The position numbers and the translations under genes were made by a program. The notes under the pieces were generated by a model. The model saw nothing but the letters and a program-made list of their open reading frames with translations. It had not been told where the DNA came from and ran no database searches. DNA of 56,227 bases, the filler included, from Platydemus manokwari (taxonomy: Eukaryota): the NCBI GenBank assembly GCA_037951405.1. It is 5 parts of 5 records of this genome, joined end to end, with 100 filler letters (N's around TTAATTAATTAA, not from the genome) between each part and the next. Parts side by side here need not be neighbours in the genome. Positions count along the whole stretch, not along the records: positions 31,516 to 43,409 come from JBBMOY010407777.1; 4 more parts are not named here. One strand, 5' to 3'. Shown in pieces: positions 19,991-51,363 of the stretch; the stretch's first letter is position 1; every line of letters starts with the position of its first letter.

Positions 19991-20370
19991 TTAATATTTT
20001 CGGAAACCATTGTAAATAAACTCTGTTATTCGTTTAAATTGTTCTTGCAATATATTTGGAATTAAAATATATGATGAAATTCGATTAGTTTTAGTAAAAA
20101 CAAAGTCATCATCCAATTCATAAAGCGGTGAGGTAGCAGTAAATAAAAATTCTGGCCCTAATGGTTCTATATTCTCAAGAGGATCTATGTATGGAACTGG
20201 TGGTTGCGGAAGAGTTTTGGGAAAGTATTTGGATAGTTTGTTAATTGTTGGAACCAGTATTATAATTCCGGTAATTACTGCACTGGTAATAAAAAGAGGA
20301 TGTCCCAAGTACTTTTTGATTTTTTCCAAATAGGTCTTTTTTTCTAAATCAGAATTATTTTTAAATAACT
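19991..20370 (-). CDS. Orphan ORF/terminal exon with one hydrophobic helix (PLFITSAVITGIIILV) and a Pro-rich segment; function unknown
   Basis: Open frame of >110 codons in ~75% AT DNA with protein-like composition; no in-frame ATG, so it is a spliced exon or a pseudogene. Confidence 0.35.
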
Positions 20371-21405
20371 CACTTTTTACATAACAATTTTACCATTGAA
20401 TACTTCAACTGCTAAACATTCTGATACAGATTTTTCTATTTCTTTTTCAAGTTGTATTTCATCTAAATATGATAAAATATTCTTGTTAAAATGTGACTAT
20501 CAATTTCAATTTAATGTAATGAGTGAAGTTATTATTAAAATATTGTTTGTAAAATTATCAGTTGATATGATTGAGAAATAGATTCTTATTATTATGGAAA
20601 AAAATGGTCACAGTCAGTCATTTCAATAGGTCATTAATTTAATTGAGCTAGTGAATTGCTAATCAATTAAGTGAAATATCATTGAATATTTGTAGAAAGG
20701 AGAACATTTAAATCACTCTAATAACATCCATCAATTAGTTGTCAATTGCTGACGAATATGAGACAATTTTATTTTTAAGAAATTCTATAATTGCCTTTGT
20801 AAAGTTAAGCGATAAGTTTACTCTTTACATAATAATTAAATCCCCAATTAATTTTTCAACTGTTTAATTCTTACTTTTCAATGGAAAATTAATTATGACT
20901 TATCGCCACAACGAAACGACAAAAGAAAATTTTGGTTATTCACAAATAAAACTTTGAATAAATTTAATCTTTTATCTGAAAACTTATGATTATATATTGA
21001 GAAGAAATCTGATAAAACCAAAGCGTAATTACAACGTTTACTGACATAATAATTAAGCAAGTCATATTTATTTCCATCAATCTGAATAAAAACAATTTAA
21101 AAATATTTCATGTAAGTAAAAATTTCAATCATGAATTTTCGTCAGTTGGTTTAAAGATTTTCAACAAATGAAATGAGATCTAATTCCCGTTAAGATTATA
21201 GATTTTAATAATAACTTTTGAATGAATATCAACAAATAAAACTATCAAATTCCGTTTACTTATTATTGTATAATATGAGATAGTGCACTTATAAAGAAAG
21301 TGTTATTAAGGGAGCAAATGGGAAATGAATTTGATAACAAAGTTGTATTTACGAACATAGGTATATATAGGTAACTATATACTGATTGACAGAAAATTAA
21401 TTAAT

Positions 21406-21505
21406 NNNNNNNNNNNNNNNNNNNNNNNNNNNNNNNNNNNNNNNNNNNNTTAATTAATTAANNNNNNNNNNNNNNNNNNNNNNNNNNNNNNNNNNNNNNN
21501 NNNNN
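21406..21505. other. Artificial contig-joining spacer
   Basis: 44N-TTAATTAATTAA-44N. Confidence 0.95.
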
Positions 21506-21579
21506 ATGATTTGCTACAGCACACACACAAGTGTTTACATCTGGTGTCAAATTCCGGTTATTAAGTTATAGACCCAATA
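21506..21579 (-). mobile_element. Terminal fragment of a mariner-like transposon at contig start
   Basis: Reads TA-TTGGGTCTATAACTTAATAACCGGAATTTGACACCAGATG inward; near-identical (1 mismatch) to 31544-31617; TA flank and TTGGGT start are typical of mariner TIRs. Confidence 0.65.
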
Positions 21580-21901: not shown

Positions 21902-22850
21902 CTAGTTGTTATTTTGAATTTCGTTTTTTTCCACAGGTTTGTGGCGATTTTTTTCGTCATTGGTTAGATCGATTTGCTCTTCTGGTGCAAAGATGGTAAG
22001 GATGTCTTCTTCCGATGTGCTGGAGAGTTGATTTGGCTGTAGTTTCTGAATCGGATAAGGTTTCTGTCTTATTGGCGGGTTTGGTTTCGGTGCTGACGGA
22101 GAGGTGAATGCCTGTTCCTTTACAGGCTCTTTTTCCTGTACACGTTTGTTGGCTTCAATTTTAGATGGGTTGACCCATTTTTCGTCGAGTTCCTTGTATA
22201 TGGCTCGAATGGTTTCTACTTCCCTCTGAATTACTCGGAAGGTTTTCATTAGGTTGGAAGTTGAGTACTACTTTCTGTTTGATGTTTTTCAGTTTGATCG
22301 GGTTTCTTGGGTCTAGATTGTAGTCGACAAGATATTCAGCTTGGACGAGTTCCTTTATGCCAAATATTTCCTCGTGGGGAATGTCGAGAGCTTTTACGAT
22401 ATCATAGACTTGAAGTCCTTCGACTTCTAGCATAATACGATTGACTCTTTTGTCGCACATTAGGATTTCGAGAAAGATTGGTTCGTCGATTCCGGGAATA
22501 AAGATAAGAATAGGTTGAGTTGTGGTGGTTATCCAGGTGCGTGGATATTGATCAGCTTGTGAGCTTCCCGGTAAGGTTTTTGGTAGACGAGCTCTTGTTG
22601 GGGTTCCGATATACGCTGCTACGGAGTCTCGTGGTCCTCGATGAGCGAATTTCTGCTTGTTGGTTAGGAGTGCCTGAGAATGGTACTGTCGATGTCGGCT
22701 GGTCTGGCGACGAACGTCGACCATTGTTTCGTGCTATGCGTTGGTGGTCATCGAATAAACTGTTTGACTCGATATGCTTGGGAGAATGGACTGCGGCCCA
22801 ATACTGACTGGGTATTGCATGATTGAGTAAACTTTTCGATTGTAGTCCAT
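21902..22850 (-). pseudogene. Gypsy ORF4 of unknown function (frameshifted; ORFs 22161-22724 and 21902-22249)
   Basis: Long overlapping open frames co-directional with pol inside the same GC-richer block. Confidence 0.5.
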
Positions 22851-22974
22851 ATCTGAAGAGAATGAATTAATAATCGTAGCTGAATGATACATACAGTATA
22901 CGCAGCTGATTAAATGTAATAATACAATTCAGGTATAAATAGCGATAGTGATTTTAGGTTGACTCAGTAATTGT

Positions 22975-23910
22975 CATAAAGTCGTATTACTGAAGTACCT
23001 TGGGGATGGTAAATAGTTTCTATACACAGGTGGCTTGTGCCGTGTTAGTAAGCATGCTCCTATTGGGAATAGAACGGAGGCTACAAATGCCGTTTCTATT
23101 CCAGCTCTATCTTTACAAAGATGCTCATGATCCGAATAGGCTGTTCGGTGACTTCTTGTCCCATTGCTCTGGTTTCCGGATTCGTAGTTGTGGTTTCATC
23201 ATTTTTCTTAGCCTTTGGTGACGGTTTATAATGTCGATGTTGTCTGGTGATGTTCGGATTCTAGGTACTTCTCTCCAGGAGTTTTTCTAATTGACCTAAT
23301 TCCTCTTTGTAGTGCTTCGTAGTGTGGTGCATTTTCTTTGCGCTGTGATTTCCTAGTTGGATTCGGGCATTGGTTGCCATTTCTCTTGGTCGTCCCTATG
23401 TTCGATAGTTATTATCAGTAGATAGTCTGTACAGCTGTTTCGCTTTATAGTGTATTTCGATAGTCGTTGGTGATTTATCTGAATAGATTCTGTGTTTCCG
23501 CTGGGGCTCTATATACTGATAGAGGCTAGGTCACATGGACATTCGTCCTTTGAAATAGTGATATGAGTTCCGGTAACTTTGTATTGTAAGGTCAGTTTAA
23601 ATGCCCATTATTCAATATAATTGGTTTCTTCTACTTCCAAATAGCTGGTTGCATCATCAAAATGATATTGTCGGATGTTAATCCCGATGGTACCGAATAA
23701 TTTCTGTTGCAAGATGGTGTAACTCTGTTGTGTCCGAATAGAGATATTGAGCTGTTCCGATTTTATCTTGTAATATGGGTTCTATTCGCTTTGCACATGC
23801 ACATTGACGTCGTTGTCATTCCATGAATTCATCCAAAATGGTCACACTAAAGGTGACTGACATGCTCCTCCCTAATTTATTGTTATTAAACTCAGAATAG
23901 CGAGTGTCAT
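22975..23910 (-). pseudogene. Gypsy ORF3 (env position): predicted type I membrane protein with FN3-like ectodomain
   Basis: From ATG 23910 one frame reads MTLAILSLITIN*GGAC (signal-like)...IRTQQSYTILQQKLFGT...KYTIKRNSCTDYLLIITIE with only isolated stops. It continues via frameshifts to a Thr-rich stalk DETTTTNPET and a hydrophobic GIETAFVASVLFPIGACLL followed by RHK (~23100-23040). Confidence 0.55.
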
Positions 23911-26910
23911 TAGCTGTGAGGTACCGATGTCCGCTGCTTGGTGTGACTTTTTCTTCTTGATACCGTTTACATCGGTTTACGTGCACCCACATTAGTTTCG
24001 CGTTGGTATTTTTCGACGCTAGGATTACTACATTAGTATCTGTCACCTTTTCTACAGTAAATGGTCCCTTAAAATAACGGGCTGGTTTTGATGATAGTTC
24101 TTTCTTGCATGCTTTTATGTTCTAACATGACCCGATCTCATACTTTTATTGAGTGCTCTTTTGTTCCCTGGCCATATCTGTCCCTGAACTACTCTTGCTG
24201 ATGCTGGGTATACAATTAAGATCTTGGCCATGCTCGGGTTCCTCTTTCATTTATTACGGTGACGTGATCTTCTTCGTCCATGTACTGTGCCAGTGTTGGT
24301 TCGATTTTCAAGTCCACAGGCATGTTACTCATACGTGCACACATTAAATAAAATGGTGAGTATCCGGTTCCGCTATGCTGTGCATTATTATAGGCAAATC
24401 TGCAGGATGATAGGTGTACATCCCAGTCATTTTGTTTATCGTTGGTATAACATGGTAGCATATTGTCAAAAGTACCGTTTGGTCTCTCGCATTTTCATTG
24501 ATTTGAGGGTGGTATGCGGATGTAATTAGTTTTGTAATTACGAAAAAATGATTCACCTGATTTATGATTTGCCTTAAAAACACAGTACCTCGATCGGTTA
24601 GCAACATTTTGGTACACCGTATCGAAAGATTATTTCTTCGACAAAGATACGAGCGATAGTGTCTGCGGTGTGATTCACGATTGCGAAAACCTCGATCCAT
24701 CGAGTTAGATGGTCGCAAAATACTTGAATGAATTTGTTTCGTTGTTTGGTGGTTGGCAATGGGCCGACAACGTCCATATCGATTATTTCCAATGCACTTT
24801 AAATTTCTTTCCTATGTTTCTTCGAGTCTGGCATACCTTGCAGATTGTACAACATCTGTATATATTATATCATATTAAGCCAATAATATTTTTTGTCGGA
24901 TACGGCTCATGGTTTTCTTGGCGGACAGGTGTCCTCCTATGGTTCCGTCGTGGTATTGTAAAAGTACTATATTCTTTAAAATCTGTGGTAAGACGATGAT
25001 ATATCGGCTTGGATAACCAACGTAGGGTCTACTCTTTTTGCGATTTCTGACCATTGTTCTGTTTTATCTTCTATTATTTTTACAATCTGCATGATGTCGT
25101 CATCCTCTTTTTGCAGTGCTTCTATGTCGTATTGGTTGTTCAATGATTGACTCGCTGTGAGTATAGTTTCGGCAGTGGCTTTGTATTCAGTGGGATCTTC
25201 TCGGAATAGCGCGTCGACATTTCTGTTGGCTTTTCCTTTCCTATAACACAACTTGATTTTGTATGGTTGCAACTTCAATGCCCATCTAACGAGTCTAGAA
25301 GCTGTGTCTCTGTGTTGCAATAACGATTGCAGAGGTTTGTGGTCCGTGAATACGTGTATTTCTTATCCATACGCGAATATTCTGAATCTTTCTACAGCGT
25401 ATACGATAGCAAGGGCTTCCAGTTCGATTTCGTCTGTTTTTAAGCCTCGGCTAAGGTATGCTATGGCGTATTCTTTTCCATTGAGGTCGATCTGCCATAG
25501 GACTGCTCCTATTACATATCCACCTGCACCCGTAATAATGATGAACGATTTACTCATATCTAAGTGTCTCAGGATTGGTTCCTTGAGTAATTGATATTTT
25601 AGCTAGTTGAAGGCTTGCTTCTGTTCCTGTTGCCACTGGAATGATTTATTCTTCTCTAATAACGACGTTAGTGTTAGTAGGGCTATTGTGCGAAGTTCCG
25701 TATGAATTTCCTTTAGTAGTTAACTAGCCTTAGAAGTTTTCGCACCTGTTTCACCGTCTTTGGTGGTGGGAATTTGGCTACTTTTTGGTTATATACTGGA
25801 TCAGGTTTCACCCCTTCATCCTTTCTCCGGACACCACATGTCCAAAGTATTTGACCTCTCGCTCGGTCCATTTACATTTTGTAGTCTTCAACTTGACTTG
25901 TACTTCTATAACCTTTTGTAATACTCTTTCGATGTCTTGAAGGTGTTCCATAAGGCCATTTGAATAAATAGACCATCGCGTGCTATACATTCATTAGCAT
26001 AATGTTCGTTGCTCTTTGAAACATGGCATGAGCTCCTGTGAGTTAGAATGGTATGAAAAGCGGTAAAAGGCGTTGACTCTTCATTCATTACGATATTATT
26101 GTAGCCCCTTTGCATGTCTAAAGTGGAGAACAGGTTTGCTCCCCGTACTTGGTTGACCGTGTCATCGATTGACGGTAGAGGGTAGTTATCTTTCGTTGTT
26201 TACTCGTTTACCTTACGATAATCGATGTACATGCGCATGGTGCCTTCTTTTTTCATGACAAGTACGATTTCTCTGATCCTTCCTTGATCCAACAGTGTCT
26301 GAATCTGTGTAGCTATCTCAGTTTCCATGGCAATAGGCGTTCGATAGGCTCGTTGACAGATAGGATTTGGGTCTATTAGCTCTATCTTATGTTTCATAAT
26401 GTTACATTTAACAGATAGTTTTTATGTCTGCCAAATGCCTCGGGATATCAATTGATTAGTTCAGTCAATTGCTTGCATTGTTCCAGTGCGACGTCTTTAC
26501 TTTGTATTCGCATGGGTTTACATAATTTCTCTTGAGCTGAGTACTAGTTCTGCTTCAAAATCTGGTGTTGGCATATAGTGTGACAGGACTGTTGTTCACA
26601 TTTGCAATTCTGATCGGAATCTTCCCGTCTTATACTATGGCGATTCCGTTTCCGATGGGTATAAGTCCATTTCTGTCTGTGCTGGCCACATTAACGTAAT
26701 CTACCAGTCCTCGTTGGTTCTGTCGTTTAATTCTTAAATCTTCCTGATTATCGTTCATTATCTGGAATTCATTGATAGGGTAGGTTTTCCGTTTATCGGT
26801 TCCGGTATTTTCTAACGGCTCCTTGTTTTCCTTTACATTTACGTCTTCTTGTCTAGTAGTCAGGTCTTGCTCAATTTGTACTAGATGATAAGGAGGTGCG
26901 CTAACTGTTG
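23816..26910 (-). pseudogene. pol: Gypsy pol pseudogene (RT, RNase H, integrase with GPY/F module)
   Basis: RT: HKIEL..PICQRAYRTP, MRMYIDYRKVN, DNYPLPSIDD, FSTLDMQRGY; YxDD deleted. RNase H: GAVLWQ..IAYLSR..ELEALAIVYAV, RLVRWALKLQ. IN: DVVGPLP, LLTDRGTVF, SAYHPQ, YNNAQHSGTGYSPF, FKGPFTV, VHVNRCKRY. Many stops and frameshifts. Confidence 0.95.
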
Positions 26911-29900
26911 ATTAATTTTTGTTTAAATTTAATCAGTGAAACTAAATCGATGGAAAATAAAAATATCAAGATTTCGATGAAAGAAATAAGATGTACCAAT
27001 AGGTAAATAAAAGTGAGTGACGTATTTTAATGATTTAAAAGTCGAAATAATGTGAAAATTTGTGTCTTTAATTATTGTATTGGGCTGAAATTATGTTGTT
27101 CTAAGTTAACGAATATGTGGTCACGCTAAGTAGAGTTATTTAAAGAAGTGATAACAGCCTTTAAACTACACTTACATGTTGTAAAAATAATAGAACGAAA
27201 AGGGAAAACACAAAACAATAGTACCCAAAATAATCAATAATTATTTCATATCTAAAATGGATTCGATAAGGGCACATGAATGAAAACAAAATATCATAAT
27301 GGCATGCGCTATCTTTAATCAAATAAAGACAACCAATTCAGCCGTGGAGATAATTTGAGGATATTGTAGGTGATTTATTAAAAACTTTGGTCTTAAAACC
27401 TCATGTAACCTCATTTAACTTATCAACAGTTTCTCTAGGAAAGAAGGATTGTTCAATATGGTAACTACCTTGTAAATGTATTACAAATCTATTATCGAAG
27501 GTGTTCATTTTCCAATAACGTATATTAAATGACTACTGGCATATCTAATAAATGCAAAATATTCCTTTTCAACAGATCTCCCACATATAGTGTCAGGCTA
27601 GATATGAAAATTATTCATTTTTCCATTAACAACCGACTTATTTATGGAATAGTAAGTGAAAATCAAATTTGTTTAACTAAATTGGTTATTTGGAGTAGTT
27701 TTTGAAAACCTTAATATGCCAGAAAAAATAGTTCATATAGTTTACAGATAATAAGATCTCGAACTCTAAATAATACAGCCGGCTTTTAAGATTGTTGAGA
27801 TATATTAATTTAAAATCCAAGTTTCATATAAGATTTTGAGCAAAAATATTAATTTCAATTTAATAAATAAAAACGTTTAATTTTTTAGGTGTGTCTTAAT
27901 GAAGGTGCAATATTTGTATTGATTTCACTAATTGATCTGTGGATTTTCTGGCTTTGAAGCACTGCCATAGACCAATCACATAATTTATTGTAACCATTGG
28001 TTACAGATAGAATATCGAAAGTACTACATAATTAATCCACCACCATTTTAAGACTCAAAGAAATCACACACATACACTGTGCATATTTTGTGTATTTTAT
28101 TTTATTATTATCCGTTTTGATTATATTCGAGTTTCATGTCAAATTATTATTAAAAAACCTGATTCGTTTATTAAATTTAAGGTGAGTTTAAAACTATATT
28201 CGATTCCAAATTGTAAAGAATTTATCATATCCTCAATAACGCAGATATCTAAATTCAGCACTAGCACCCTAAAAAAATAACCAGATATCTTGAAAATAGG
28301 ATACGTGTTAATTATCACTACTACACTTTTATTTTTCGTTGCTCCCAGTACGATAATATCAATTAAGTTACTCAAATACAGTAAAAATGCAAATATAATT
28401 TTAATAAATGACCTATAAAATTCGCAGTGGAAAAGAATCTTAACTGTCAAACATTTGGGAGATTTATTTATTGGTTGTTTCATTAAATCAAAATGAAAAT
28501 TCGAAGAATGTGAACACTAAACCGAATGATTAATTAAAAATAAGTTCCAAAAGTATTTTACAATCTAACTGCAAATTAAAACACATCTTACTCTTTATGG
28601 ATCATTTTAGGGAATTGGGTTAATTTAGTAGTACCCAAATCTAGTACAAAGGTTCTCTAGTTATGAATGTCATTGGTTATAATAAATAAATTTAGAAACA
28701 GAACATGTTTAATGTTTTAAGCTAGTGGCAAACTCAAATTTGACTGATGTTAGATTGAAGGAAATGGCTACATTGGAAACTGAAAAGTGCCAGGTATAAA
28801 AATTATACAATCATAAATAAATGAAGCATCAATATTTCGCTATAAAAAAGAGCTGAAACAAAAATTTCTTCAATTTCTATTTGATGTTTAAGTTTGAATG
28901 CTGAGTATACGAAGGTCTTTTTTCTGTTCGAGATCGTTCGAGTCTCTAGTTGAGCAAGAAGTCATTTTCATCTTTTCAGATTAATGTAGCTGTATAGTCA
29001 TCTGTGGTATGGTTTATTTTGTTCACTTGTGATTAGTAACTTTTGTAGTATGTTTATTCACGGTAGGTTACTTATATTATTTAATTTAATTGGCTTTCTT
29101 CAGGTGTTTTTTATTAGTTGCCTTTCCAATGAATTGTGCTTTTTACCAACTGAGGATAGTGCTGGTTAGTTTTACAAAATATTGTTATTATGATCATTAT
29201 GATTATGATAATGATTATTATGATTATTATTATGATTATTATTATGATAATTGTTAGAATTTATAATTGAATTAAATTTTTAAAGATTTAATTTTATATA
29301 AAATTAAATTAATTTGTTTATATAATTCTATTTAAATTTATAATTTGATCTCGTGTCTTTTCAGTTCGTTCTCGATGCCCGTTTTATAAAATAGTAGCGG
29401 CTTACTATTATTATTATAATTATGATTATCATTCTTATTAACTACAGCCATTATTAATATTATAAATTATATTTCTTATATTGATATCTCCACATATTTA
29501 TTAATTTATTTATATGATTGTGTTTTTGGCTGCCTTCATAAGTTCCAGAACAAATTCAACCAAACGAAACCTTGGTAATTAACCAGAAATATTTATTTTA
29601 TCAAAAACATTTAGCATTTGCATCTATATAAATAATCACTACATCGATTTCGACAGTTATTCAACAGTTCAATCATGTAGAATTAATGATTTATAATGGT
29701 CCAAACAAAGAGAAAATATTATTACTTTTTTAATGAAAAAAACTTAATTACAACTCAAAATATTTCTAATTTCATTTATTTTGTCATTTCAGTAAAAAAA
29801 TTGTTTTTAAAATTTAATTTTAAAAATTACGTGAAATATTTATGAAATGGTCAAATACTATGTTAGGATTCTTAATCTACCTTTTGCAATTCGAGTATTT

Positions 29901-31415: not shown

Positions 31416-31515
31416 NNNNNNNNNNNNNNNNNNNNNNNNNNNNNNNNNNNNNNNNNNNNTTAATTAATTAANNNNNNNNNNNNNNNNNNNNNNNNNNNNN
31501 NNNNNNNNNNNNNNN
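31416..31515. other. Artificial contig-joining spacer
   Basis: 44N-TTAATTAATTAA-44N. Confidence 0.95.
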
Positions 31516-31617
31516 ATAGAGCTTCAAAATGACGTGTATGTTAATGATTTGCTACAGCACACACACAAGTGTTTACATCTGGTGTCAAATTCAGGTTATT
31601 AAGTTATAGACCCAATA
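31516..31617 (-). mobile_element. Terminal fragment of the same mariner-like family
   Basis: Same sequence as 21506-21579, extending inward to CATACACGTCATTTTGAAGCT; different external flank after the TA. Confidence 0.65.
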
Positions 31618-31892
31618 TTTAATTATCTAAATATTTTGTTTTTATTAATGATAAAATATAATTTTATTTTTAGGGGTAAAATTTATTTTTAATTTAAATA
31701 AATATCATTAATATTAACTTGAATAATCTTAAGAATTCATCGGTCTAATGAACTGAAATTAATCTTGACTCTAACGACTTATGGACTTAACCAACTCTGT
31801 AGTTTGATTTTGATTTTAAAACAATATTTTTTTGATTGTTCCTTTAGTATTAGTTTTGAGTATTGATATTTATTATTAATATTAAATCTTAG

Positions 31893-32665
31893 GTTCCATA
31901 CCGTGGTTAGTAGTTCCAGAAATGTTTCCAGGCAGTTGCAGAGCGGTTGCTGTTTCGATATGTATTACTTTTAATTGGCTGTCTAATCTTGTCACTGGAT
32001 TAATCTTTCCTTCTCTCCATGTAAGATAATTTATATTAATCTAAAATTAACAGATCTAATCGCATAATTGTTTTGGTTTTGTATGATTTACAGTGGAAAT
32101 TATAAATTGATCAAATTTATTGATATGATTAACTTCAAAAACAAATATTGATTTTCTAGTTCTTCTTTCTTTATCTTCGATTTCTTTTATTCGAACTGAA
32201 AACATTTCCAAATCAATTTCCTTTTAAAACTTCATGAAATATCCCATTATTTAAAAATCAAGTCTGTCACACCAGATGCAGACTTTTATATCGAGGACTA
32301 TTTAATAATAGCGGAAGATTATTATATAAATATTTATGAGATGTACCATCTGATAAATAAGGCTTGAACGTTACGAAATTTCTGGTAAAATGAATGTTTT
32401 AATAATTATTTTTATAATACTTCATGAAATTCTCATTTTAAAAATCAATCTGCCTTGACAAAAAAAATGTCAAATGACTTAATTTTTTTTAATTTATTGA
32501 TGCTAGGATACTCTCCAAAATCTCATATTCTTGCCATTCATTGTATGTCAAGTGCTGTCAATAGGGTATCTTTTCAAATTCATGCCAGAAACCAAGCCAG
32601 ACAAACCCGCGAAATCCAATAACATTGCAAATGATCACCTCATCGCACAAGCAACGGAATTATAA
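31893..32665 (+). CDS. Facilitated sugar transporter (GLUT/SLC2A, MFS), last two exons 31893-32020 and 32507-32665
   Basis: GSIPWLVVPEMFPGSCRAVAVSICITFNWLSNLVTGLIFP (TM10-11, PW..E.F..R and NW..N motifs), then TM12 and PETK; GT-AG intron in frame; stop TAA at 32663-32665. Confidence 0.92.
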
Positions 32666-35600
32666 ATTAACTTTTGAAAAGAATCCCAAGAATCGAACAA
32701 ATGTTTTTTGTTATTTATAACAATAAACTTTTTATTCTACTTTGTTTTATTAATTATATAATCGAAGTGGTTTGAAATTAAGACAAATGAAATTAACATA
32801 AAAGATATTGAGAAGTTAACCCACTAAGAACGAATTGCAGTCATTGTCTATTGATAAAATATTTATTATGAAAACCCAAATAGACGTTGGCAGTAATTGC
32901 AATGGTAATTTTGGTTAGTGAAACATCTAAACCGCCATAGGTAGGCAAGCATGACACTCAGAAATTTGAAAGTCAAATAGCGAAATATATGTAGCTCTAA
33001 ACATGACATTCTGAAATATAAAATTAAATATGTCATCATCAGTATTGAGTCAAAACAATAGAAAAAGAATTCATGTGTGTCAGAAATTTATGAATGATAA
33101 GGTAAACCAAATAACTGAGATATCACTAAATAAGCAAATTTTATGCTCGGTAGACTATGAAATATGAGCCAAGAAAGGTGTTAGACCGAATAATAATGGA
33201 AGAAAATTCAGATGAGACTGCTTAAGATGTAGCTACTATTTATGCTGACGATAATCGATCAGATTTATATAAAATTTGTTTTATAATTGGAAACGTTTGA
33301 AATAATTTTAAAAATATACAAATTATTTTTGGGAATTTTGTAAATATGGTTAACACATTAGAATAAATTAATCTTATGGACTTCTAAGACATACTATTTC
33401 AAAACTTAACTATAAATTTATAAGATTTAAGCTAATAAAAGATAGAGAATTTTTTCATACATTCATTAGTTTTTGTTCAATTTATAATAACTAATCATCA
33501 CTTTTGTTTTAATGTTTCTTTTCGTTTTATTATTTGAAAAATGTAATTAAATGTATTTAAAGTAAGTAATGTTTCTTATTCAATTGTTACTCATAATTTA
33601 CGTTTTCATATTTTGAAATAAATTATGAATTCATTTTAAATTATTGAATAGAATATATAATTTTTGATTTTGACTCAATCTTTTTTTTGGATGATTATTC
33701 ATTCACAATTGCAGAAAATAAATATTGTTTCATGTTCGATATCAACTTGTGCAAATTATCTTTAAATACAAGGTTAAGTTTGAATTAACCTTTATTTTCT
33801 TTGAAAGTCATACATTTGTGGGTTTACTTATTGGCAATATATAATTTGGGAAATTTTTATTGGATATTTAGTTGGTTCGGCGAGTTTAAAATAGGAAGTT
33901 GTAACATATATTACGTTTGAGACTATTAACCATAAATATTACATAGCGTAGTAATAAGCTTATAATTAAATCTTACTGTTTCTTGGTCTCCCAAGACTTA
34001 AATTAATTTGGACAACGAGATAAACATGTTAATTTATTTTGCCTCGAAATTTATAATCAATATATGAATTCTATTAAAAGTAAAAATACAGTCTAATTTT
34101 TATGCTCTAAACACAGTATTAAAAGATAAGTGTTTGTCTGCATTTGCTAATTGGCATTTTGGTAATCATAATGTAGTGCATCTTTGTGCTTTATAATCTA
34201 TGAAAATAGAGTGTTATTTGGCTTCAGATTAAGAAACGTTCACTGCCGAAGATGTATCTATAGGGTCTGAGCTAGTTGCAAAAATATTTTTTATTTTTAT
34301 TTATTTTATTATCAATAGGTAGTTCACTACTAGTATTTTTAGGAATATTTGCGTTATGTACATTTGATTTATTTTGTTCATTTTTATTTTTTCGATGTAA
34401 AATGGATCGCCAATTATTTGGTGGAACGATATCTGTATTAATTTTACTTCTGCTTCCGTTATTATTATCAGGTGGGCTTGGATAGTCGAGGCATAACTCT
34501 TGCCAGGTTTAATTAAGTTATTATTAATTTAGAATTAAAATTAAATTGTGGGCCGGGTACCTAGTCGACTTTCAATTTTTAAAATTATCTCTTTTATATT
34601 ATATATTCAATAATTGATTCAAGAAACTAGTTTTTTAATTTCTATGAAATCTTTATTTAAACACAATTTTTTATTTTACCCAATATCGAAATGCTATTCA
34701 TGTCATACAACTTTTTCGCATTTTACATTCAATAATACTAAGACATTTATAATTCACGAAAACTAAAATCTTATTGGACATTAAAAAATCAATAACTGCA
34801 AAATGAAGTTTTCAAAAATCGTATAATTATGCACACTTTAACGGTTTTGCAAACCAATTATTTCAAATTATTATTGAGTGTTAAAATTATTGTACCAAGC
34901 GTTTCGATTGCTTTTGTATTGTGGACCTTTAGGCTATATCTTGTGTGAAATTTATCCGCAAATAAGGTTTCAATGTCTTAATAATTTTGTATTTTTATAT
35001 TAATATTATTTTTATATCTTGTTAACATATTTTATTCAAGTTATTTTATTAGTTATTCTGATACTTTGTTTATTTGTAATGATCTGATTTTTTCTTCTGA
35101 TTTTATAAATTACCTTTATAATAAATTCTTTTTTTACTCATTTAATTTCTATTTATTAGAAATTTATAAAGAATTTTTTACTTATCTTAAAAACAAATTA
35201 CCTCAAAATACATCGGTATCGCACTCTGTTAATCCAAGTGCTATGTCCGCGAGACATAATCATTGAACCTCTGCACCCGCAATAAGTTATTTGCCTACTA
35301 ATTAACTTTGCATTCTTTTTCACTAATTAGTATCAGATAGGATCTCGATTACACAAATTCTTATTTCAACTTTTGTGCTTCCAAGGCTATTGTAATTATT
35401 AGATATTGTTTAATTTTATGGTAATATTCTCTAAATATGAATTAATACCTTTCACCGCATAAGATTTATTGTATTTTTTAAATTATATATGGTCTTATGT
35501 TTATTTTTATAATCATTTCAATTTGAACATTTCTTGAAAAGAAATTTATATCCAACACAAAAAATTTCACTTGAGAAATATTCTTAAATAAAAATACTTA

Positions 35601-38475
35601 TAGTCAAGAATATTCGTTAATGCGCGAAATATCATTTGATGCTTATCATTGAAAAACTCGTCAGCAATTTAAGTTATTTGCTACAGCTTACTTTCACAAA
35701 AAATTCTTTTAACTATTTACAAAAATTCAGTTAGTAGCCAATGGAAATTCAAGAGTTTTTGTTATCTTGTTGGCTGATTTGAGTTGTGGTCTAGCGATGT
35801 GTCATCTTAAAAGCTAGTTGCAGAAAATCAATCATTTTTCTCTGTCAAATTTTATTGAAAATCAGTAAAAATATTCATAATTGTTAATACGCATTCTTCA
35901 CCCTTGTTAGGATTTTCAGTAGTCATGATTATTTATTTTCCATTACACTTGCGTTGTATATTTATTCCTGTCGCTTGTTATTATTAAAGTTATGTTAGAA
36001 CGCACTTTAATATCAACATAAATGGAAATCTCTAAGTTCTTATTAATAATATATTCAAAAGTAATTTTTTATTTCAATGTCTGGTAACTATTTTATTTGT
36101 TCATAAAATATGTAACAATTTTTTATTTTTATGTCTTGCTACTATTTTTGTTCGCATTTTTAAATCAGATATGATTTTATTTTTCTCGCATCACTTAATA
36201 TTCAATTTTCCTGTAATCGCGTGTTTTATTGCTTTGATTTTAGAGTTTTATATTATTTTATATTTTATTATTAGTATTATTAGTATTATTAGTATTATTA
36301 TTCGATAATTGTACCTTTATTATCACTATCGTCATTTATTTATTATTACTTTAACTATTGTTTGTTATTTAAATCATTTATTTAGAATTTTTTGCCTCTC
36401 ATTAATCTCTTATCGATTTACAATTTAAAAGAATTAAGACAATATCCATATAAAGGTATAATAGTTAAAATCATAAACATACGCAAGATAACAATAAACT
36501 AATACTATTTATATTAAGCACTTCACGCTAAGATAAAATAAGTGTCAAAACAAAAATTCAAATCAATTCAATAGTTTCAAAATTTCAATTCAAAAGTTTT
36601 AGGAATCAGTTTGATAGATCAGTTCAATTGGTTGTGATGATCATCAGATAGGATTTTATTACTAATGGTTGCTGTCTTATTGGAAAAGGTTTGTATTGGA
36701 ATCAGAATGAATTTGAACTGGGAAAATTGGAGAGCTACTGTTTGTGTTTGTGTTGATTATTTATTGGGCTGGGTGGCTACCCTCATCAAAATTAATCTTT
36801 AAAAATAAGAATAATATAACTAAAAATGAATATAAATTTTGGTTTGGAATAATGAATAAGTAAAGAACCATCAACATTATGAAATACAAAAAGTTTATTA
36901 ATTTGATAATGGTTTAATGATTCACTATTTCTCTCTGGGTTTCTAGTATAGTATGAAGACTGATACCAAGAATTTAATAATATTGACTGAAATGAAGTGT
37001 CTGTGATGATAATACTTGAAATTAAAATTTCCCAGATCACATTTATCTATATGACTTTATTTATTTCAATATTCTTGAAATTTTCCTTGAAATTAGATTA
37101 TTTGTTATTCTCAATTCGATACCAAGCTTTATGATCAACTAGAATTTTTGCTGGTAACGGTATATTGTTGCAGCATTTTCCATTAGGCTTGCAATTCAAA
37201 TTAATATTTTTGTTTATTTTTAAATAAAACAAATAAAATATAAGTATAATAAACATGCTTTTGTGTTTTGAAGTTCTTACGTTCGTTTTCTACGCGTATT
37301 TTATAAAATAGTATTTTTTAACAATGATCAAATTCATGCCAACAAAATTTAAACCTATTGCTGGTATGTTAATAAATTTTCCAGTATTAAATTCTCTAAT
37401 TTTCTTACGCCTGTTTTGGTTCTTTATCTATTGACTTATTACTGTTGTCATGTATTTTACTACAATGCTGTCTTTATTATTTTACTTTTATTACGCATAA
37501 TATAAAACAAAGGTAAAGTTGTATTTATTTAAAGACTTATTAGAACTTTGAAATGTACGATGAGGACATTTTTGCAATCGGTAATCATATTTCGTTATTG
37601 CTAGTTTGAATATGATTACTATTTATTTTATTCACTGGTTCTTGTGGAGCTTTAATAATTCGTATGATGATGAAACTATCGGAAATTCACTTAAATCTAA
37701 AGGTAATAATAATACAACTATTATTGTATTATCTATTGTACAAGGCTTTCCAAACACTGTACAGATGTTATGTCGATCTTAACTGTAATGTAAAAACTAA
37801 ATTAATGCCCGTAACACAGTTATTATTTTGTTTGCTTTATAGTGATCAAAAATGCATTTGGGTTTATTTAATCTGATTGAAAATGTAGCAATAATATCAA
37901 AAATATGATGTGGTGGGATATTTTATTTAGCTTTTACTGATCCTAGAGGGCTTTGGTAATCTGTATGAGGACGAAATAAATGGTTAGACTGAAATTATCT
38001 AAAGATAGCCAGTATTACATGACTGAATCACCACAGCTAGATGTTAATTTTGGTTGAAGCAAAGTTGAGCTTCGTTTTGATGAACCAAAATAAAATTTAA
38101 AACACGTTGTCCGAAGTATCTTTTAATGTTATCGCATGCTCGTCTTCATTTTAATTCCGCATTTGGTATGTATTCGAAAATTATTTCACATAGTACTCGT
38201 GTATATCTTTTATTATTACTTTTTAATATTTCGATGAAATCTCGGTGTTCCTTAATCTTTAGGTCATGATATTTTTAGTGCGTTACCATTTATATACAAT
38301 AATAAGTGCTGATATTCCTATTAGTTTCCAAGCCATATGCAATAGTCACTCTATTAAACTCTAAAATCGTCCAAACCTTCTTATCCACTTATATTTATTG
38401 TTTATTACAATAATATGATAATGTAATTGATCTGATGTTTTGTCACTCATTTTTTCAATTTGATTATCAATTAGA

Positions 38476-38999
38476 TTAATTCCACTTTGTATTCGATTCT
38501 ATTGGTGCTGCTTTCTCTCTGGCTATTTTTAAAGATATCCGTACCGGGTATTCTTTATTATTGTGATAAATTATATATTTCGCGTCGAAAAATATTGTGA
38601 ATCTTGTTCCTTTTCGATTAACTCTATCATTACAGCGTATGGAATGTTTTTTGCTTTGATCTTGATCTGAGTATTCTTTTTGTGATTTGTATTTTTGTAG
38701 GGGTGACAAATAAATTGAAGCTGAAGTAAATGTTTCTAGATGAATTCCTTCTTCCGGATATTTGATGGTAACATCCGTCTGAGAATTATGAATAATCAGC
38801 ATTGTTGGCATAAAATTTATCTGGGGTAAAATATCCTTTATTTTGAAATTTCCTTGTTCTTGGGTAAATAATATTATTGTTGGTCTCATTTGAGATGCAG
38901 GTTTTAATTTATTGGGCAGATTTGTAAAATCATCAAAATATCTTATCCCAATTCCGACGGGGCTTTTCGGACTGTTCTTATTGTGGTAAACGGTTCCAT
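38476..38999 (-). pseudogene. Orphan protein (~170 aa), 5' end disrupted
   Basis: 137-codon open frame 38889-38476 preceded by MEPFTTIRTVRKAPSELG*DIL.. with stops and a frameshift. Confidence 0.5.
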
Positions 39000-39001
39000 T
39001 T

Positions 39002-39172
39002 CTTTTGGATTATTAAGGATTAAAATGAATAATCAGCAAAACGACTTACTTATATATTATTTGATTGAGACTTTTTAATATAATTGTGGATGCCAAATGT
39101 TTTGGGGCCGCTTTATATGTTTTAAGCACTCTAATCTCATTGGTCCATTTTTTATAGGTTTTTAACCATTGG
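39002..39172 (-). promoter_or_regulatory. Pol II promoter (2x CCAAT + TATAAA) and 48-nt 5'-UTR intron of the 38999-38476 gene
   Basis: Minus strand: CCAAT at 39172 and 39143, TATAAAG at 39117, GTAAGT donor at 39049, AG acceptor at 39002, ATG at 38999. Confidence 0.55.
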
Positions 39173-39498
39173 TTAACTTTGTTTTCCTTATTATTTTATT
39201 CATCAAGAATTTTTTATTAATAAAAATTAATTTATTTGCATTAAAGTTCCATTCATCAATCAATATTTCATACATCATTCGTATTGTGTATTTACAGAAA
39301 TTTCAATTTACAACGAAACAGTTATCATTTCCCATTCGATATTTACAATAATTATTTCAATGAAACATTATTCCATAACCAGTTTTTACTTTTTAACTGA
39401 TATTTACATTTATTGTTTCTATTATCAATTATTACCGAATGTATAAATTCAAATTTCAACTGGTATTTACAATTGTTTGCTTTATTAAATACTACTGA

Positions 39499-40543
39499 TT
39501 AACAAAAATTCCCGAATTTAATAGAATATTTTTCTATATACATTTCATTATATGCATCAATCTCCCATGATCGGGGATTGTCTTTGCAGTATTTTCTATA
39601 CAAATTTTAGCCTAAGGCTATTACTATCATGGTGGTAGAACTAAAGATCAATGCTAATATCAAAACTATATTCAAGGTGATTTAATTTCGGGGTTTCTTA
39701 CTACTTAATGGAATCAATTTTATATCACTTGTACTTATATTCTGCTTTTTTATTCTTAGAACAGATTTCGTTGTTATTTTTCTTATTAAAACTGGTTTTA
39801 GAACTACTTGTTATATATGAATTATAAGTTTAGAGTTACTTATTTCATAATACAATAAATTTATATTTGTGGGGTTTCTTATATCAACTTTCTGGAGTGA
39901 TTCCTTCAACTGAATTTATCTTATATTGATAATCGTTTAAATGGACTCTTACTTCGAAACCTTTTACCTCTTTCCAAATGATTTTTATCTGGTCTAAGAG
40001 TTTTCTATGAATATTTTCAGGGTAATTCAGGTGTTTGAGCTATTGCTGTTATGACTATGTTTTATTTTATATTGATGTTCATTCACATGCACTCTTACTT
40101 CAAGGCATTTTAAATCTTCCCAAATGATTTTAATCTGGTCTAAGAGTTTTTCAATAAATATTTTACGGGGTAATTCGGGGGTTTGGGCTATCATTGTTGT
40201 GATATCTTTTTCCTTTCTTATTTCTAACTGATAGATGGTTCCACATTTTAAATTATATATGTTTACGGCTCCATTGTCACTTTCGTGTAATCTATCATCT
40301 GATGCTTGGCAGTTATTTTTTGCCTTATTATTTAAATTAACAATGGTGTCTTTCAATTGATTTTTCGTTGATTTACACGCAATATTTTCCTAAGTTTCTT
40401 TATATAATATTAAAGCAAAAATCATAAGCCTACTAATAATTCAGGATCTACTTCCTGCTCCTTAGGCTTATCATTTTTATCGATTTCATTAGACTGAATA
40501 AAAATAAACTCGATTATATGATTTGAAAAATTACTTTTTTCAT
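39499..40543 (-). pseudogene. Type I membrane protein with FN3-like domains and an internal tandem duplication
   Basis: MKKVIFQII.. signal-like start; FN3 signature NIYNLKCGTIYQLEI; duplicated TPELP..LLDQIKIIW..EVRVH.N..QYKI; TM ITLNIVLILALIFSSTTMIVIALG followed by YRKYCK; AATAAA 13 nt after the stop. Confidence 0.6.
39915..40185 (-). repeat. Tandem ~124-bp coding duplication (40061-40185 and 39915-40037)
   Basis: The two copies align by eye and encode nearly the same peptide. Confidence 0.9.
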
Positions 40544-40560
40544 TTTCAATGTGAGAATAT

Positions 40561-41429
40561 TTATTTAATAAACAGTTTTTCAATGAAACAACTCAGATGT
40601 AATCTGAAACCTTCACCACTAAGTATTGAGCAAATAACAATAACCTTCTTTTTGTCATAGGTTTCAACCAAGTTTGTCAAACATCTCTTCATCAACAAAT
40701 GGTCCTAGACATTTTCTTGGTCGTCTGTTTCGGTTATGATTCTGAAGCTATGAGATGCGTTGCCTTGATGAAATTGCCATTGCATATGGGATACCTGGAT
40801 GTTGAACTTGATACATTCGTTTGTGATTGTAACCATTAATTTATTCTTTAACCCTAATTTTCTCAGTAATATACCATTTGTCGTTGGCCAAGTTCCTAGT
40901 AAGTGAATAATGCACACCGAGTATCCCGGTCTTGATTATTTTATTTCTTTCCTGAGCTCCTCGTATTTTTGCACATTGAGGTTATCGGCAATAATCAGCA
41001 GACGTTGTTCGTTCAATGGGCATTTCACATGGATTAGAAATCTTGACCTTGTTTGGTTATTAACTACTTGCAAGTCAACTTGTAGTCTAAAACCCGTAAA
41101 TTGGCAAGGTTTTTCGACATAAACATAATTTTTGTGGAGTAATTGATAAATTTGGACAATATGTCCATGACCTCACACTTGTTAAAGACGTGTGTTTTTA
41201 ACTCTATCTTGTATTGGCACTTTCATTACTGATGGCCACTCATATACTTCTTGATCAGTGTTGGCAATGTATTAGAGCGTAGTTCATTCAGGTATATTAA
41301 TTTTGCTACTGTCAATCTTCCGTTGAATACGACTTTTTCCATATGGGTGAGACGGTAGGCATTATTTTTGTATGTCTTCCACGACGTATTTGTTGAGCCC
41401 ATTTCAGTTGATAACTTCCGGTGAAGCAT
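40561..41429 (-). pseudogene. CCHC zinc knuckle + restriction-like endonuclease (RLE, PD-(D/E)xK) of R2/NeSL-type non-LTR retrotransposons, without RT
   Basis: LRSNTLPT...KCQYKIELKTHVFNKC (knuckle, first Cys lost)...HxxIV...VEKPC...RLQVDLQVV...FLIHVKCP (D>H)...NVQKYEEL...PGYSV..LLGTW...N..LLRKLG matches the remembered RLE consensus RH..I..E..LRPDL..IIDV.CP..KY..L..GSLG.W..N..L..LG. Confidence 0.75.
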
Positions 41430-43409
41430 TAATATTGATTTATTTTAAAATGTAACTGTGATTATAATTACATATTTGAATATTCACCATTATTAGATAT
41501 CTTACAGTTTGTAGAACATCTGTCGCCCGAGAGTGTATCAATAATAAAATTAATCAAAAGATTGGTTTACTTGCTTATTATTCCTTCGATGGATTTCATT
41601 TAATAGTTGATTCCATGTACAGTTCTTTTTAGAATTCTTAATTTGATATTTTTCCTTATCGAGGGTTTATTTCAATGCTTTTATTAGTGTAAAATTTTAA
41701 TTTTCGCTGTCTATTTATACTATTTTAGAAGTATGTTTAAAAAAATTATTTTCCCACTTTGATTTAAAAAATCTCATTTTACATTCATTTGAATTATTTT
41801 ATTAATTTTTAGAAATTCTATGAATTTTTGGAAAATTCTGATGAATTAATTTTGGCATTTCTATAATTGATTACTATGGTCAATTTTAGAAATTATTTTA
41901 TTAATTAACTTAAACAATTCTACCTTTTATTATTATTATTATTGTTTTTGGTGCTTTATTCATTGTTTTGTGTTGTCCGATTTTAATTTAATTTTATATT
42001 TACCAAAATTATCAATTATTTTCAAAAGTACGATTAGTTACTACATATATAAAAATGCAACTACACATACGTATTTCAAAATCAAGGAAGGACTTGGGAT
42101 TATTCACATTTCAAGATTCAGATTAGAGACAATCAAATAGATAAATAGTTAAATCAATTGTCGTAGTCAGACGTTTCCATAGTCGAATTCCTCGTCGATG
42201 TTCACCGTTTGTGTAGCTCTCACCATCTTGAGGAACTGATCGTCGTTTCATCGGGGATTGTCAGTTCCAGTTTTATATTTTTAGCTCTCTCGCTCTGGAT
42301 GGTTTTTTCGGGCTTGTTTCCACGACACACGATGACATTTCAATTCCATTTATCATCCAGTTCTATCCGTTCTTGAGTATTGGTTCTCGGTACACCTTCC
42401 CAACACATTTATGCTTGATGACAATTAGCTTTAACTAGATAAGATTATTATTTTTATATATATTATTTTCTAAACATTTTTAATTAATATAATGATATTT
42501 ATTTTAGTAAACTATTCCTCTAATGGCGATTAATTTTTAATAAGATTTCTCTAATTCTCTCGCATTCTCATTCATTAATTTTTTTATTCCCTCGTTCTTT
42601 TTACTTGTACATAAACAAAAATAAAACTTTTTAAAAGAACAATACAAAAAAGGGATAACTGTCGATTGAACAAAATTAAAATCACTTATCTTATAGTCTT
42701 TTCTTCTTGAAGCATATTGAAAATAGATAAGCTTTTCAGACTGTATTTCTAATCCTATATCACAAATATCTTCTTAATAGTAAAATATTTTGAGCCAAAT
42801 AATATTATTGTGAAATTGATATTACTTGCTTGAAATTAGTTTCTTGATTATGATCGTATAAATTTCGTTTTCAAATTTGATTAAGTTACAGCTTGTATAT
42901 GATTATTGAGGTCACATACTGACTTTCTGTAATTTTTCTTCACACAGTTTTTGTATCTCTTAATATGTTGGCTTCAAATTTTTGAAATAACCTAATTGCG
43001 GGGGTTATGTTTGTTGTTTATCTTGATTGATTTACTTTTACTAATAAGAATTTTTCTGTTCAATGTCCATGAGTTAGATTGATCAAAAGGAACAAGAATC
43101 TTTTTATTTGTTCTTCTCTGGTTAACTTTGACATATTTCAAAACAGAAAAATTATATTATTAATATTTCAATATCTTTCATAAATATTTTTGTGCGTATT
43201 GTGTATGAAATTGTAACCGATTGTAGGTATATTTAATAAATATTATGCATGTATCTAATGTTTTGGATTTGCTTTTATTATTAGGACTAACTAGTGCGAG
43301 CTGTTGCATATTTTAATCAATTTCAACAGAATAATTGTTAATTGTTTAATTATTCGAAATATCATTTTATATTATTTTTTAGTTTGCGATTAAAACATTA
43401 AACACACAA

Positions 43410-43509
43410 NNNNNNNNNNNNNNNNNNNNNNNNNNNNNNNNNNNNNNNNNNNNTTAATTAATTAANNNNNNNNNNNNNNNNNNNNNNNNNNNNNNNNNNN
43501 NNNNNNNNN
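43410..43509. other. Artificial contig-joining spacer
   Basis: 44N-TTAATTAATTAA-44N. Confidence 0.95.
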
Positions 43510-50199: not shown

Positions 50200-51363
50200 C
50201 AATTTATAATAAATGGAAGAAACATTGAGGGAATTTTTGCTTGATTCCCATCTGGCATATCTGTTCATATATAAACTTGACGAACTGTGTGTTGAAATCC
50301 CATAGAATTATTACAGTGATTTCACTCTCTTTCACTCTTACTAAAATATCATATTTAACTTTCTGTTAAGAGCTTCATGATACAAAATATGTGACATCTA
50401 TTGCCCAAGAGTTTTCACAATTTTACGTATTTCGCGGTCTTTCATTTGCTGTTCAGGAATTTTCACAATGATATCTGACTTCCTGTAGAGTTGTGCGAAG
50501 TATCTTGTTTTATTTTATCAATCTTGGGACAACTTCTTGGTCGTTCTCTGTTTGTGGAAACAACTTAACCCAGCTTTAATCAACTTCATTTAAAACGGGG
50601 GCTTCTAATTTCTGTCCGTCAATCTTCATTCATGATGTTGATTTTGGTAAGACATCGAATTTCAGACATTTCAATCTCTGGCTGTATTTTGCTCTCTCTT
50701 AGTAACAATATCCTTAAAAATTGTTTCACACGTCAAGTCTGAACTCAAAATCGATTATACCAATTTTTGAACTTGAATCTTCAGTGTGGCGAATTGCTCA
50801 TTATAATTTTGTTGAACTCTTGATAATTCAATAATCAAGTCAGTAAAGACTTTTTGTTGTAAAGGTATCCATGAACCACTTCCTTGAGTCTTCTTTAGTT
50901 GCTTCATTCATAAAATTCTTCCATGATATCATAGGTTTCTCCGATTATAGGAAGTCAAAAGCATTTAGAATATTGAGATTATTAATAACAAGTCTACAAT
51001 ATCCCGGATTCATCTAGTAGTTTAATTTGGGTCTCGGACGTCATATTTTTAAACATTAAAGTTAAAGGTTTCTTGAGACTTCTTAGGCAGTGACTACGAT
51101 AGTATTTTGCACTGTGAGATTCTGGGCATTAATTTCAGCAGAGTTGTCGCCAGTAACAGTCTTGGTAAATATGAATGTATATTTTTAAAACAGTATCAGA
51201 AAATTAAATATTAAAACAAACAATCACGTGACTATAAATACTACTGTCCACCTTGTTAGGTTGTATTGGATTATTTATGATGTAAATCAGTAACCAACAG
51301 ATCTGGCATTTCCTGTAACTCTTCTTTAGTTGCGATATTAGATCGAGTATTATTTCTTGCCAT
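50200..51363 (-). pseudogene. Orphan gene (MARNNTRSNIATKEELQEMPDLL...), decayed
   Basis: ATG at 51363 downstream of a TATA; long protein-like stretches (e.g. QKVFTDLIIELSRVQQNYNEQFATLKIQVQKL, coiled-coil-like) broken by stops and frameshifts. Confidence 0.4.

What the first reader, a model, noticed from the sequence alone, without database searches (positions are those of the whole stretch)
36790..43134. Virus-like array of orphan genes with surface proteins and a captured endonuclease
Seen: at least six co-directional decayed ORFs, two starting about 10-20 nt after an AATAAA (TAAAATAAATCAATATTA-ATG at 41429; AAATAAATATTCTCACATTGAAA-ATG at 40543). They include two predicted secreted/membrane proteins (40543, 37256) and an RLE nuclease. 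Host genes in this window are intron-dense and widely spaced, so the block looks foreign. Known precedents for such arrays are Polintons/Mavericks, nuclear DNA viruses and giant multi-ORF retroelements (Vesta, Terminons in bdelloid rotifers). No hallmark replicase, capsid or integrase is visible here, so the carrier is unidentified.
Basis: partly seen in the sequence, partly recalled or inferred. Interest (0 to 1): 0.72.

Follow-up and report, generated by a model that had tools for sequence, protein, structure and literature searches.

The report
LINE tail among decayed orphan genes
The supposed captured nuclease is likely the broken tail end of an ordinary jumping gene (a LINE) that landed among three or four dead genes of unknown origin in a probable flatworm; one of those genes has many related copies in the genome, but no virus hallmark gene was found.

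Summary
Partly confirmed. Four decayed minus-strand reading frames are statistically real (36792-37256, 38476-39198, 39370-40437, 40705-41172); three more are weak. The nuclease is not a bare captured gene. It carries the LINE linker helix, zinc knuckle and RLE in the published order. A short 3' UTR follows, and relatives stop matching at 40546, just behind the AATAAA. So it is likely a 5'-truncated NeSL/LIN-type LINE insertion. The AATAAA-ATG pattern is chance: 20 of 111 ATGs have it, and the frame from ATG 40543 has 14 stops in 101 codons. The comparison with host genes mostly spans five unrelated contigs joined by spacers. What remains odd is an orphan membrane-protein-like frame whose core has many relatives differing at third codon positions (7 of 8 listed). 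It sits with two or three further orphans in a 10-kb strand-skewed block. No polymerase, integrase, capsid, TIR or LTR was found, and no homologue in any database searched. The scan's notes hold no look-alike of this block; another note reports NeSL-type LINEs in this genome.

The parts
40546..41525 (-). Likely 5'-truncated RLE-type (NeSL/LIN-like) LINE: linker, zinc knuckle, RLE and 3' UTR; decayed (stops, frame changes); upper border approximate
   Evidence: motif chain; relatives over 40563-41204 and 41312-41525, none at 41526-41632
41175..41279 (-). LINE linker helix motif R-x-N-x-LP (41279) and C-x8-H-x4-C knuckle (41219); stop codons stand where the first Cys is expected
   Evidence: motif definitions in PMC5678591 (passages)
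40705..41172 (-). Degenerate RLE domain (GH, E, VD, H-x-K, N-x-x-KY, G-x-W in the order of RH, E, PD, D/E, K..KY, RG.W); one internal stop
   Evidence: motif order in PMC4838377 (passages)
40535..40704 (-).
   Evidence: sequence; 7 contigs match 40546-40693 and joints tie this piece to the RLE; LIN 3' ends carry similar AT-rich AATAAA ends (PMC4640811 S6)
39370..40437 (-). Orphan frame D, membrane-protein-like pseudogene: short hydrophobic start, about 200-residue middle, TM-like stretch near 39687-39610, Tyr-containing tail; FN3 likeness by eye only
   Evidence: multi-copy core 40028-40348; 7 of 8 listed differences at codon position 3
39915..40210 (.). Tandem duplication of about 148 bp inside D (39915-40063 / 40061-40210, 81% identical) that breaks the frame; 5 related contigs appear to lack it
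   Evidence: loose ends at 40061
38476..39198 (-). Orphan frame E (last 177 codons open); no relatives above background depth
   Evidence: no hits; AlphaFold2 pLDDT 33
37560..38388 (-). Possible further decayed frame F, split over frames; weak
   Evidence: single-frame p 0.02-0.04, best-of-six 0.11-0.36
36792..37256 (-). Orphan frame G, 154 codons, 2 stops, short hydrophobic ends (secreted or anchored look, by eye)
   Evidence: no hits
41633..42488 (-). Separate-looking multi-copy repeat zone: AT-rich repeat, (AAT)n at 41918-41956 preceded by AATAAA at 41960, and a 39% GC possible ORF remnant B (42150-42460)
42500..43134 (-). Possible remnant A (79 open codons, 42773-42537); no relatives; doubtful
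35883..36790 (.). Multi-copy non-coding repeat around a (TAT)n tract at 36251-36302, left of G
33466..43409 (-). Zone of continuous A-over-T skew on the minus strand (about 0.15), ending at the contig end

Best explanation
The block is dead repeat DNA in which a likely 5'-truncated RLE-type LINE (about 41.5 to 40.55 kb) sits beside decayed orphan frames D, E, F and G that likely come from one larger, unidentified multi-ORF mobile element. SHOWN: linker, knuckle and RLE motifs in LINE order; no RT upstream; multi-copy relatives of the LINE piece and of D's core; stops and frame breaks in every frame. INFERRED, step 1: an active NeSL/LIN-like LINE nicked this site with its RLE and copied its RNA from the 3' end (target-primed reverse transcription, established for this group); copying stopped early, leaving only the last 1 kb with its own poly(A) signal. 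INFERRED, step 2: the target was a region of a larger element whose family kept D under purifying selection while it multiplied. INFERRED, step 3: all parts then decayed neutrally to a similar degree (0.6-2.3 stops per 100 codons). Nothing here is predicted to work today.
For: LINE identity: R-x-N-x-LP (41279) followed by C-x8-H-x4-C (41219) was linked in 0 of 2000 block shuffles; the full four-motif chain also 0 of 2000, but motifs 3-4 were shaped after seeing the sequence. PMC5678591 defines this helix + knuckle + RLE order for RLE LINEs (passages). Planarian LIN families of the NeSL group are on record (PMC4640811), with AT-rich AATAAA 3' ends (S6). Independent insertion: 7 contigs share differences at 40599-40660, and the from_end column puts the end of their match at 40546, the first A behind the AATAAA. 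Joints 40574>40654, 40691>40939, 40692>40761 and 40693>40774 tie this UTR to the RLE; none of the 15 joints shown (19 hidden) ties the RLE to D's core or to 41.6-42.5 kb. One unit for D-G: same strand, spacers of about 100-300 nt, similar decay, and a 10-kb skew of about 0.15 against at most 0.05 in 38 four-kb windows of three other contigs. D under selection: 7 of 8 listed differences at position 3, P 0.003, or 0.008 for any frame.
Against: No database homologue or fold confirms the RLE (negative), and its catalytic positions are degenerate. No target-site duplication or sharp 5' border was seen. A depth trough also lies inside the LINE frame (41205-41311), so troughs do not prove borders. 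E and F show no relatives above background while D's core has many, which a single unit explains only if they diverged below the 80% cut-off. No terminus or replication gene of a larger element is on the contig. The skew could partly be a + strand intron (Cul5 introns 0.03-0.12). All copy evidence is one run of short contigs, probably the window's own source, and its tables were cut (40 of 347 differences shown).
Confidence: 0.48

Rival explanations
1. Pure patchwork: the LINE tail, D, E, G and the repeats at 36.0-36.8 and 41.6-42.5 kb are unrelated insertions. They share a strand by chance, or because they lie in a + strand intron where sense insertions are selected against.
For: Very uneven relative depth along the block; 27% of laid records run on into unlike sequence; no similarity among the frames except D's internal duplication; four firm frames on one strand has P 0.125 by chance; a second AATAAA plus (AAT)n end at 41960-41924.
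Against: Tight head-to-tail spacing of D, E, F, G; similar stop density; skew higher than in the four host introns measured; none of E, F or G resembles a known transposon protein, which fragments of ordinary families often would.
Confidence: 0.27
2. One reading: one virus-like element (Polinton, endogenous DNA virus or giant retroelement) that stably carries the RLE as a captured gene along with surface-protein genes.
For: Co-orientation, intronless frames, 10-kb skew, similar decay of RLE and orphans, D multi-copy under selection. Polinton-related insertions and giant Burro elements with accessory ORFs are reported from flatworms (passages).
Against: The RLE has the LINE linker in front and a 3' UTR whose relatives end at 40546; AATAAA-ATG is chance; no hallmark domain in six frames of the contig; no TIR or LTR; no Rfam match, hammerheads included. 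Polinton ORFs are described as accumulating without regard to orientation.
Confidence: 0.13
3. D, E and G are pseudogenes of fast-evolving, lineage-specific host surface or secreted proteins in a cluster; the LINE tail is a passenger.
For: D and G have hydrophobic ends; D differs from its relatives at third positions; a host transporter gene ends about 4 kb away on the same contig; orphan status fits a poorly sampled host.
Against: The frames are intronless where the identified host genes are split. D's relatives include collapsed records of far higher depth than single-copy DNA, more typical of a mobile family. No RNA data bear on it.
Confidence: 0.12

Closest known systems
NeSL-clade RLE LINEs, R5/LIN group (planarian LIN9/15/24/25/26_SM; PMC4640811)
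   Same: Linker helix R-x-N-x-LP, CCHC-type knuckle and C-terminal RLE in order; short AT-rich 3' end with AATAAA; multi-copy; probable flatworm host.
   Different: Only the last 1 kb is present; no RT; catalytic positions degenerate; no rRNA or tRNA target beside it; clade placement by RT tree not possible.
Burro/GYPSM1 giant Ty3/gypsy elements of planarians (PMC6431247)
   Same: Large, high-copy flatworm elements with accessory ORFs on a strand-skewed backbone; decayed fragments are reported.
   Different: No gag, pol, env, BIR, MATH, ankyrin or LTR found on this contig; several short frames instead of one huge polyprotein.
Polintons/Mavericks and related endogenous dsDNA viruses (PMC6431247; bioRxiv 10.1101/2025.04.19.649669)
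   Same: Compact intronless orphan ORFs in a multi-copy element; Polinton-related insertions are reported in flatworms.
   Different: No pPolB, integrase, ATPase, protease, capsid or TIR; all frames on one strand.
Terminons of bdelloid rotifers (PMC6431247)
   Same: Arrays of accessory ORFs, some with transmembrane domains.
   Different: No Athena RT, hammerhead or telomeric repeat junction; the passage read lists GIY-YIG and Rep, not RLE, among accessory genes.

Membership tests
RLE-type LINE (NeSL/LIN-like) | Linker helix motif (KXRINALP-like) before the knuckle | tested here: met
   R-S-N-T-LP at 41279 (definition)
RLE-type LINE (NeSL/LIN-like) | CX2-3CX7-8HX4C knuckle | tested here: inconclusive
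   C-x8-H-x4-C present at 41219; stop codons at the place of the first Cys
RLE-type LINE (NeSL/LIN-like) | C-terminal RLE with RH, PD-D/E, K..KY, RG.W in order | tested here: inconclusive
   Order and spacing fit (GH, VD, H-x-K, N..KY, G-x-W), but several residues deviate and no profile or structure hit confirms it. That N..KY and D-V-K-C-P are usual in NeSL-type RLE is recalled, not from a call.
RLE-type LINE (NeSL/LIN-like) | Reverse transcriptase upstream in the same ORF | tested here: not met
   No RVT_1 in six frames of the contig, while the decayed gypsy RT on another contig is detected. Absence is expected for a 5'-truncated copy, so this is filed as a fragment, not a full member.
RLE-type LINE (NeSL/LIN-like) | Defined 3' end with AT-rich signal and simple tail, shared by copies with different flanks | tested here: inconclusive
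   7 contigs match 40546-40693, inferred from the from_end column; short A tract follows; flanks of those contigs not seen
RLE-type LINE (NeSL/LIN-like) | RT phylogeny placing it in NeSL/R5/LIN | not testable with these tools
   No RT in this copy, no host genome held
Polinton/Maverick | pPolB, rve integrase, ATPase, protease, jelly-roll capsids | tested here: not met
   No Pfam, PHROGs or NCBIfam hit in 36400-43409 or the rest of the contig; the contig ends at 43409, so genes beyond it are unseen
Polinton/Maverick | Terminal inverted repeats and target-site duplication | tested here: not met
   Best inverted pair 50 nt at 72%, AT-rich
Giant LTR element (Burro-like) | LTRs and gag-pol(-env) polyprotein | tested here: not met
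   No long direct repeat and no pol domain on this contig
Terminon | Athena RT, hammerhead motif, telomeric repeats at ends | tested here: not met
Fibronectin type III membrane protein (frame D) | FN3 beta-sandwich fold | tested here: inconclusive
   Motif likeness by eye only; no Pfam or PDB hit; single-sequence AlphaFold2 pLDDT 45, mixed helix and strand

The most novel reading that the evidence does not exclude
Frames D, E, F and G are the surface-protein module of an undescribed, still amplified flatworm mobile element or endogenous virus with no homologue among the 1.84 billion protein representatives searched (frame of D, E and upper F). In the boldest version (about 0.07) the RLE tail is part of it, making a LINE-derived element that carries envelope-like genes.
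Probability: 0.3. Interest if true: 0.65.

Novelty: new member of a known kind. Interest (0 to 1): 0.3.

Why it matters
The RLE part is ordinary: truncated LINE tails are the commonest product of this kind of transposition. The value lies in frame D, a multi-copy, selection-shaped, membrane-protein-like gene with no known relative. If intact copies sit in one element with E and G, that would be a new flatworm mobile element or virus family and a route to how such elements move between cells or hosts. This copy alone cannot show that.

Tried and rejected
Searches without result: Pfam on 12 six-frame read-throughs and 20 pieces (best array hit Pkinase_C E 0.002, below cut-off, rejected); PHROGs on 14 pieces (best E 0.03); NCBIfam on 9 pieces (IS630 E 0.012 at 15 bits against cut-off 100); phmmer of the 964-residue frame 37498-40389 against 1.84 billion representatives, 0 hits (it covered one frame only, not the RLE, G, A or B); word searches for the RLE and the linker; PDB sequences (cyanovirin E 0.02 for G rejected as weak); phage tblastn; IMG/VR scans (one search counted 2 candidate stretches but returned no locus, so unusable); metagenome scans (none; one search gave L001/L002, a 47-residue 35% match in a bacterial-type contig, rejected). 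AlphaFold2 on single sequences gave pLDDT 33 and 45, so no fold search was run. The protein Atlas gave no answer. No RNA holder listed; this says nothing on expression. No Rfam or tRNA match. Ideas dropped: AATAAA-ATG packing (chance); remnant B as a second, HERO-type RLE (by eye only, frame not stop-poor, motif not found in the supplement searched); a Helitron end at 37281-37313 (only an AT-only 15-mer is shared with the high-copy repeat at 29340-29410); a coding frame at 40679-40420 behind the RLE (3 of 4 changed codons synonymous, but best-of-six p 0.15 and relatives carry 1-2 nt indels there; left open). Literature: no paper held 4 of the 5 terms linking non-LTR, RLE, extra ORF, transmembrane and FN3; (captured RLE in Polinton, Helitron or Penelope-like elements) listed 3 papers, seen as listings only. 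Supplements of bioRxiv preprints were not seen.
Full report
Setting. The window is five contigs joined by artificial spacers. The finding lies on the fourth (31516-43409) and runs to its end. Only the last exons of a sugar transporter share this contig, so the comparison with 'host genes in this window' is mostly across unrelated contigs. No whole genome is held. An earlier scan note calls the host a probable flatworm (e1-8642850, unchecked); the AT-rich composition fits, and I did not test it further.

Observation. Shuffling each proposed segment (16 segments, borders chosen by eye) supports four minus-strand frames: RLE (1 stop in 156 codons), D (1 in 137), E (4 in 241) and G (2 in 155). Remnants A, B and F are weak. 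AATAAA occurs 37 times on the minus strand of 6345 nt, and 20 of 111 ATGs have one 7-25 nt upstream; two of six is expected 30% of the time. On a coarse scan the array is not more stop-poor than two other contigs (5 of 40 windows with at most 4 stops on the minus strand, against 16% and 20%). The signal lies in particular frames, not in the whole block.

The nuclease. Reading down the minus strand one meets R-S-N-T-LP (41279), C-x8-H-x4-C (41219), then GH, E, VD, H-x-K, N-x-x-KY and G-x-W. PMC5678591 (passages) defines the end of the RLE-LINE linker as a KXRINALP-type helix followed by CX2-3CX7-8HX4C and then the RLE. PMC4838377 (passages) gives RH, PD-D/E, K..KY and RG.W. The two paper-derived motifs were linked in 0 of 2000 block shuffles. 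Against this, several catalytic positions deviate, and no sequence or profile search confirmed the domain. The linker shows this is the tail of a LINE protein, so the Met at 41429 is likely internal. Relatives stay similar upstream of it (21 contigs at 41474), and the loose-end letters of 8 contigs at 41457 resemble the window there but lack the AATAAA. No RT lies upstream, although Pfam does detect the decayed gypsy RT elsewhere in the window.

Its 3' end. Seven contigs of run X1 share differences at 40599-40660. The from_end column places their match at 40546-40693 (my inference), and four joints tie this piece to the RLE in single contigs. None of the 15 joints shown (19 hidden) links the RLE to D's core or to the zone above 41.6 kb. 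Planarian LIN families belong to the NeSL-related group (PMC4640811, passages), and LIN24, LIN25 and LIN26 end in AT-rich stretches with AATAAA-like words (supplement S6 passages). A 5'-truncated LINE insertion is the simplest reading. No target-site duplication was seen.

The orphans. D (about 40437-39370) has a short hydrophobic start, a TM-like stretch near 39687-39610 and a frame-breaking tandem duplication of about 148 bp, 81% identical. Its core (40028-40348) collects summed depth up to 1298 against 8-16 for the window's own contigs. The tool warns that this is no copy number, but it points to a sizeable family. Seven of the 8 listed differences there fall on third codon positions, 5 of them synonymous (P 0.003-0.008), so the family evolved as protein-coding. 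In the RLE frame only 4 of 11 do (P 0.53). FN3 likeness is by eye; Pfam, PDB and AlphaFold2 (pLDDT 45) did not support it. E and F show depth 22-29 against 14-36 in the host part of the contig, so no relatives are visible at 80% identity; G shows a few. The frame covering D, E and upper F found nothing among 1.84 billion representatives; IMG/VR scans for E, D and G found nothing.

One element or several? For one: D, E, F and G are head-to-tail on one strand, stop densities are alike (0.6-2.3 per 100 codons), and an A-over-T skew of about 0.15 runs from about 33.5 kb to the contig end. Three other contigs reach at most 0.05 in 38 four-kb windows; the gypsy element reaches 0.25. For several: depth is very uneven, 27% of laid records run on into unlike sequence, host introns here already reach 0.03-0.12 skew, and four frames on one strand has P 0.125. 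No TIR, LTR, hammerhead or hallmark gene was found. The copy evidence comes from one run, probably the window's own source, with cut tables (40 of 347 differences shown), so it is not independent and not complete.

Comparison. Burro elements, Polintons and Terminons are the precedents for multi-ORF elements (PMC6431247, passages). Polinton-related insertions are reported from flatworms (bioRxiv 10.1101/2025.04.19.649669, passages; also scan note e1-8586485, unchecked). Each fails its defining test on the sequence at hand, though the contig ends at 43409. PMC11410931 (passages) records LINE/R2 and gypsy elements as common in planarian genomes. A paper search for non-LTR elements with RLE and extra transmembrane or FN3 ORFs returned none.

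Verdict. LINE tail as an independent insertion: about 0.8 on its own. Orphans as the remains of one larger mobile element: best single reading, 0.48 overall. Patchwork 0.27, virus-like unit with a stably captured RLE 0.13, host pseudogene cluster 0.12. Interest 0.3: the headline feature is ordinary, and the unexplained multi-copy frame D is the part worth following.

Noticed in passing
window 11029-11128, 21406-21505, 31416-31515, 43410-43509: Four identical 100-nt spacers (N44-TTAATTAATTAA-N44) join five separate contigs; neighbours across them are not real neighbours.
   Followed up: yes
window 21506-21579 and 31544-31617: A 74-nt sequence, 99% identical, near the start of two contigs; summed depth about 180,000 in bin 31516-31912, so a very high-copy repeat or satellite.
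   Followed up: no
window 22000-27000, minus: Decayed Ty3/gypsy-type LTR retrotransposon (RT_RNaseH E 6e-7, RVT_1 E 1e-4; 40% GC) on another contig.
   Followed up: partly
window 29340-29410, plus: About 70-nt high-copy motif followed by a (TAT)n tract, like a LINE or SINE 3' end; an AT-only 15-mer recurs at 37299-37313.
   Followed up: partly
window 31850-32650, plus: Last exons of a sugar transporter gene (Sugar_tr E 2e-9); one diverged contig joins 32079 to 32489 across the intron.
   Followed up: partly
window 34272-34528: Three overlapping stop-poor frames (69-78 codons, both strands) inside the skewed zone; no Pfam hit on the minus frames, no relatives above background.
   Followed up: partly
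window 19991-20389, minus: 132-codon open frame with a hydrophobic stretch and a Pro-rich segment; no Pfam hit.
   Followed up: partly
window 50200-51200, minus: Decayed frame with a string resembling an APE endonuclease motif (by eye, recalled); no Pfam hit.
   Followed up: partly
window 3349-9573, plus: Intron-split cullin gene (Cullin E 3e-27, Cullin_Nedd8 E 2e-21).
   Followed up: partly
window 39391-39487: 34-nt direct repeat (76%, spacing 63) in the tail of frame D.
   Followed up: no
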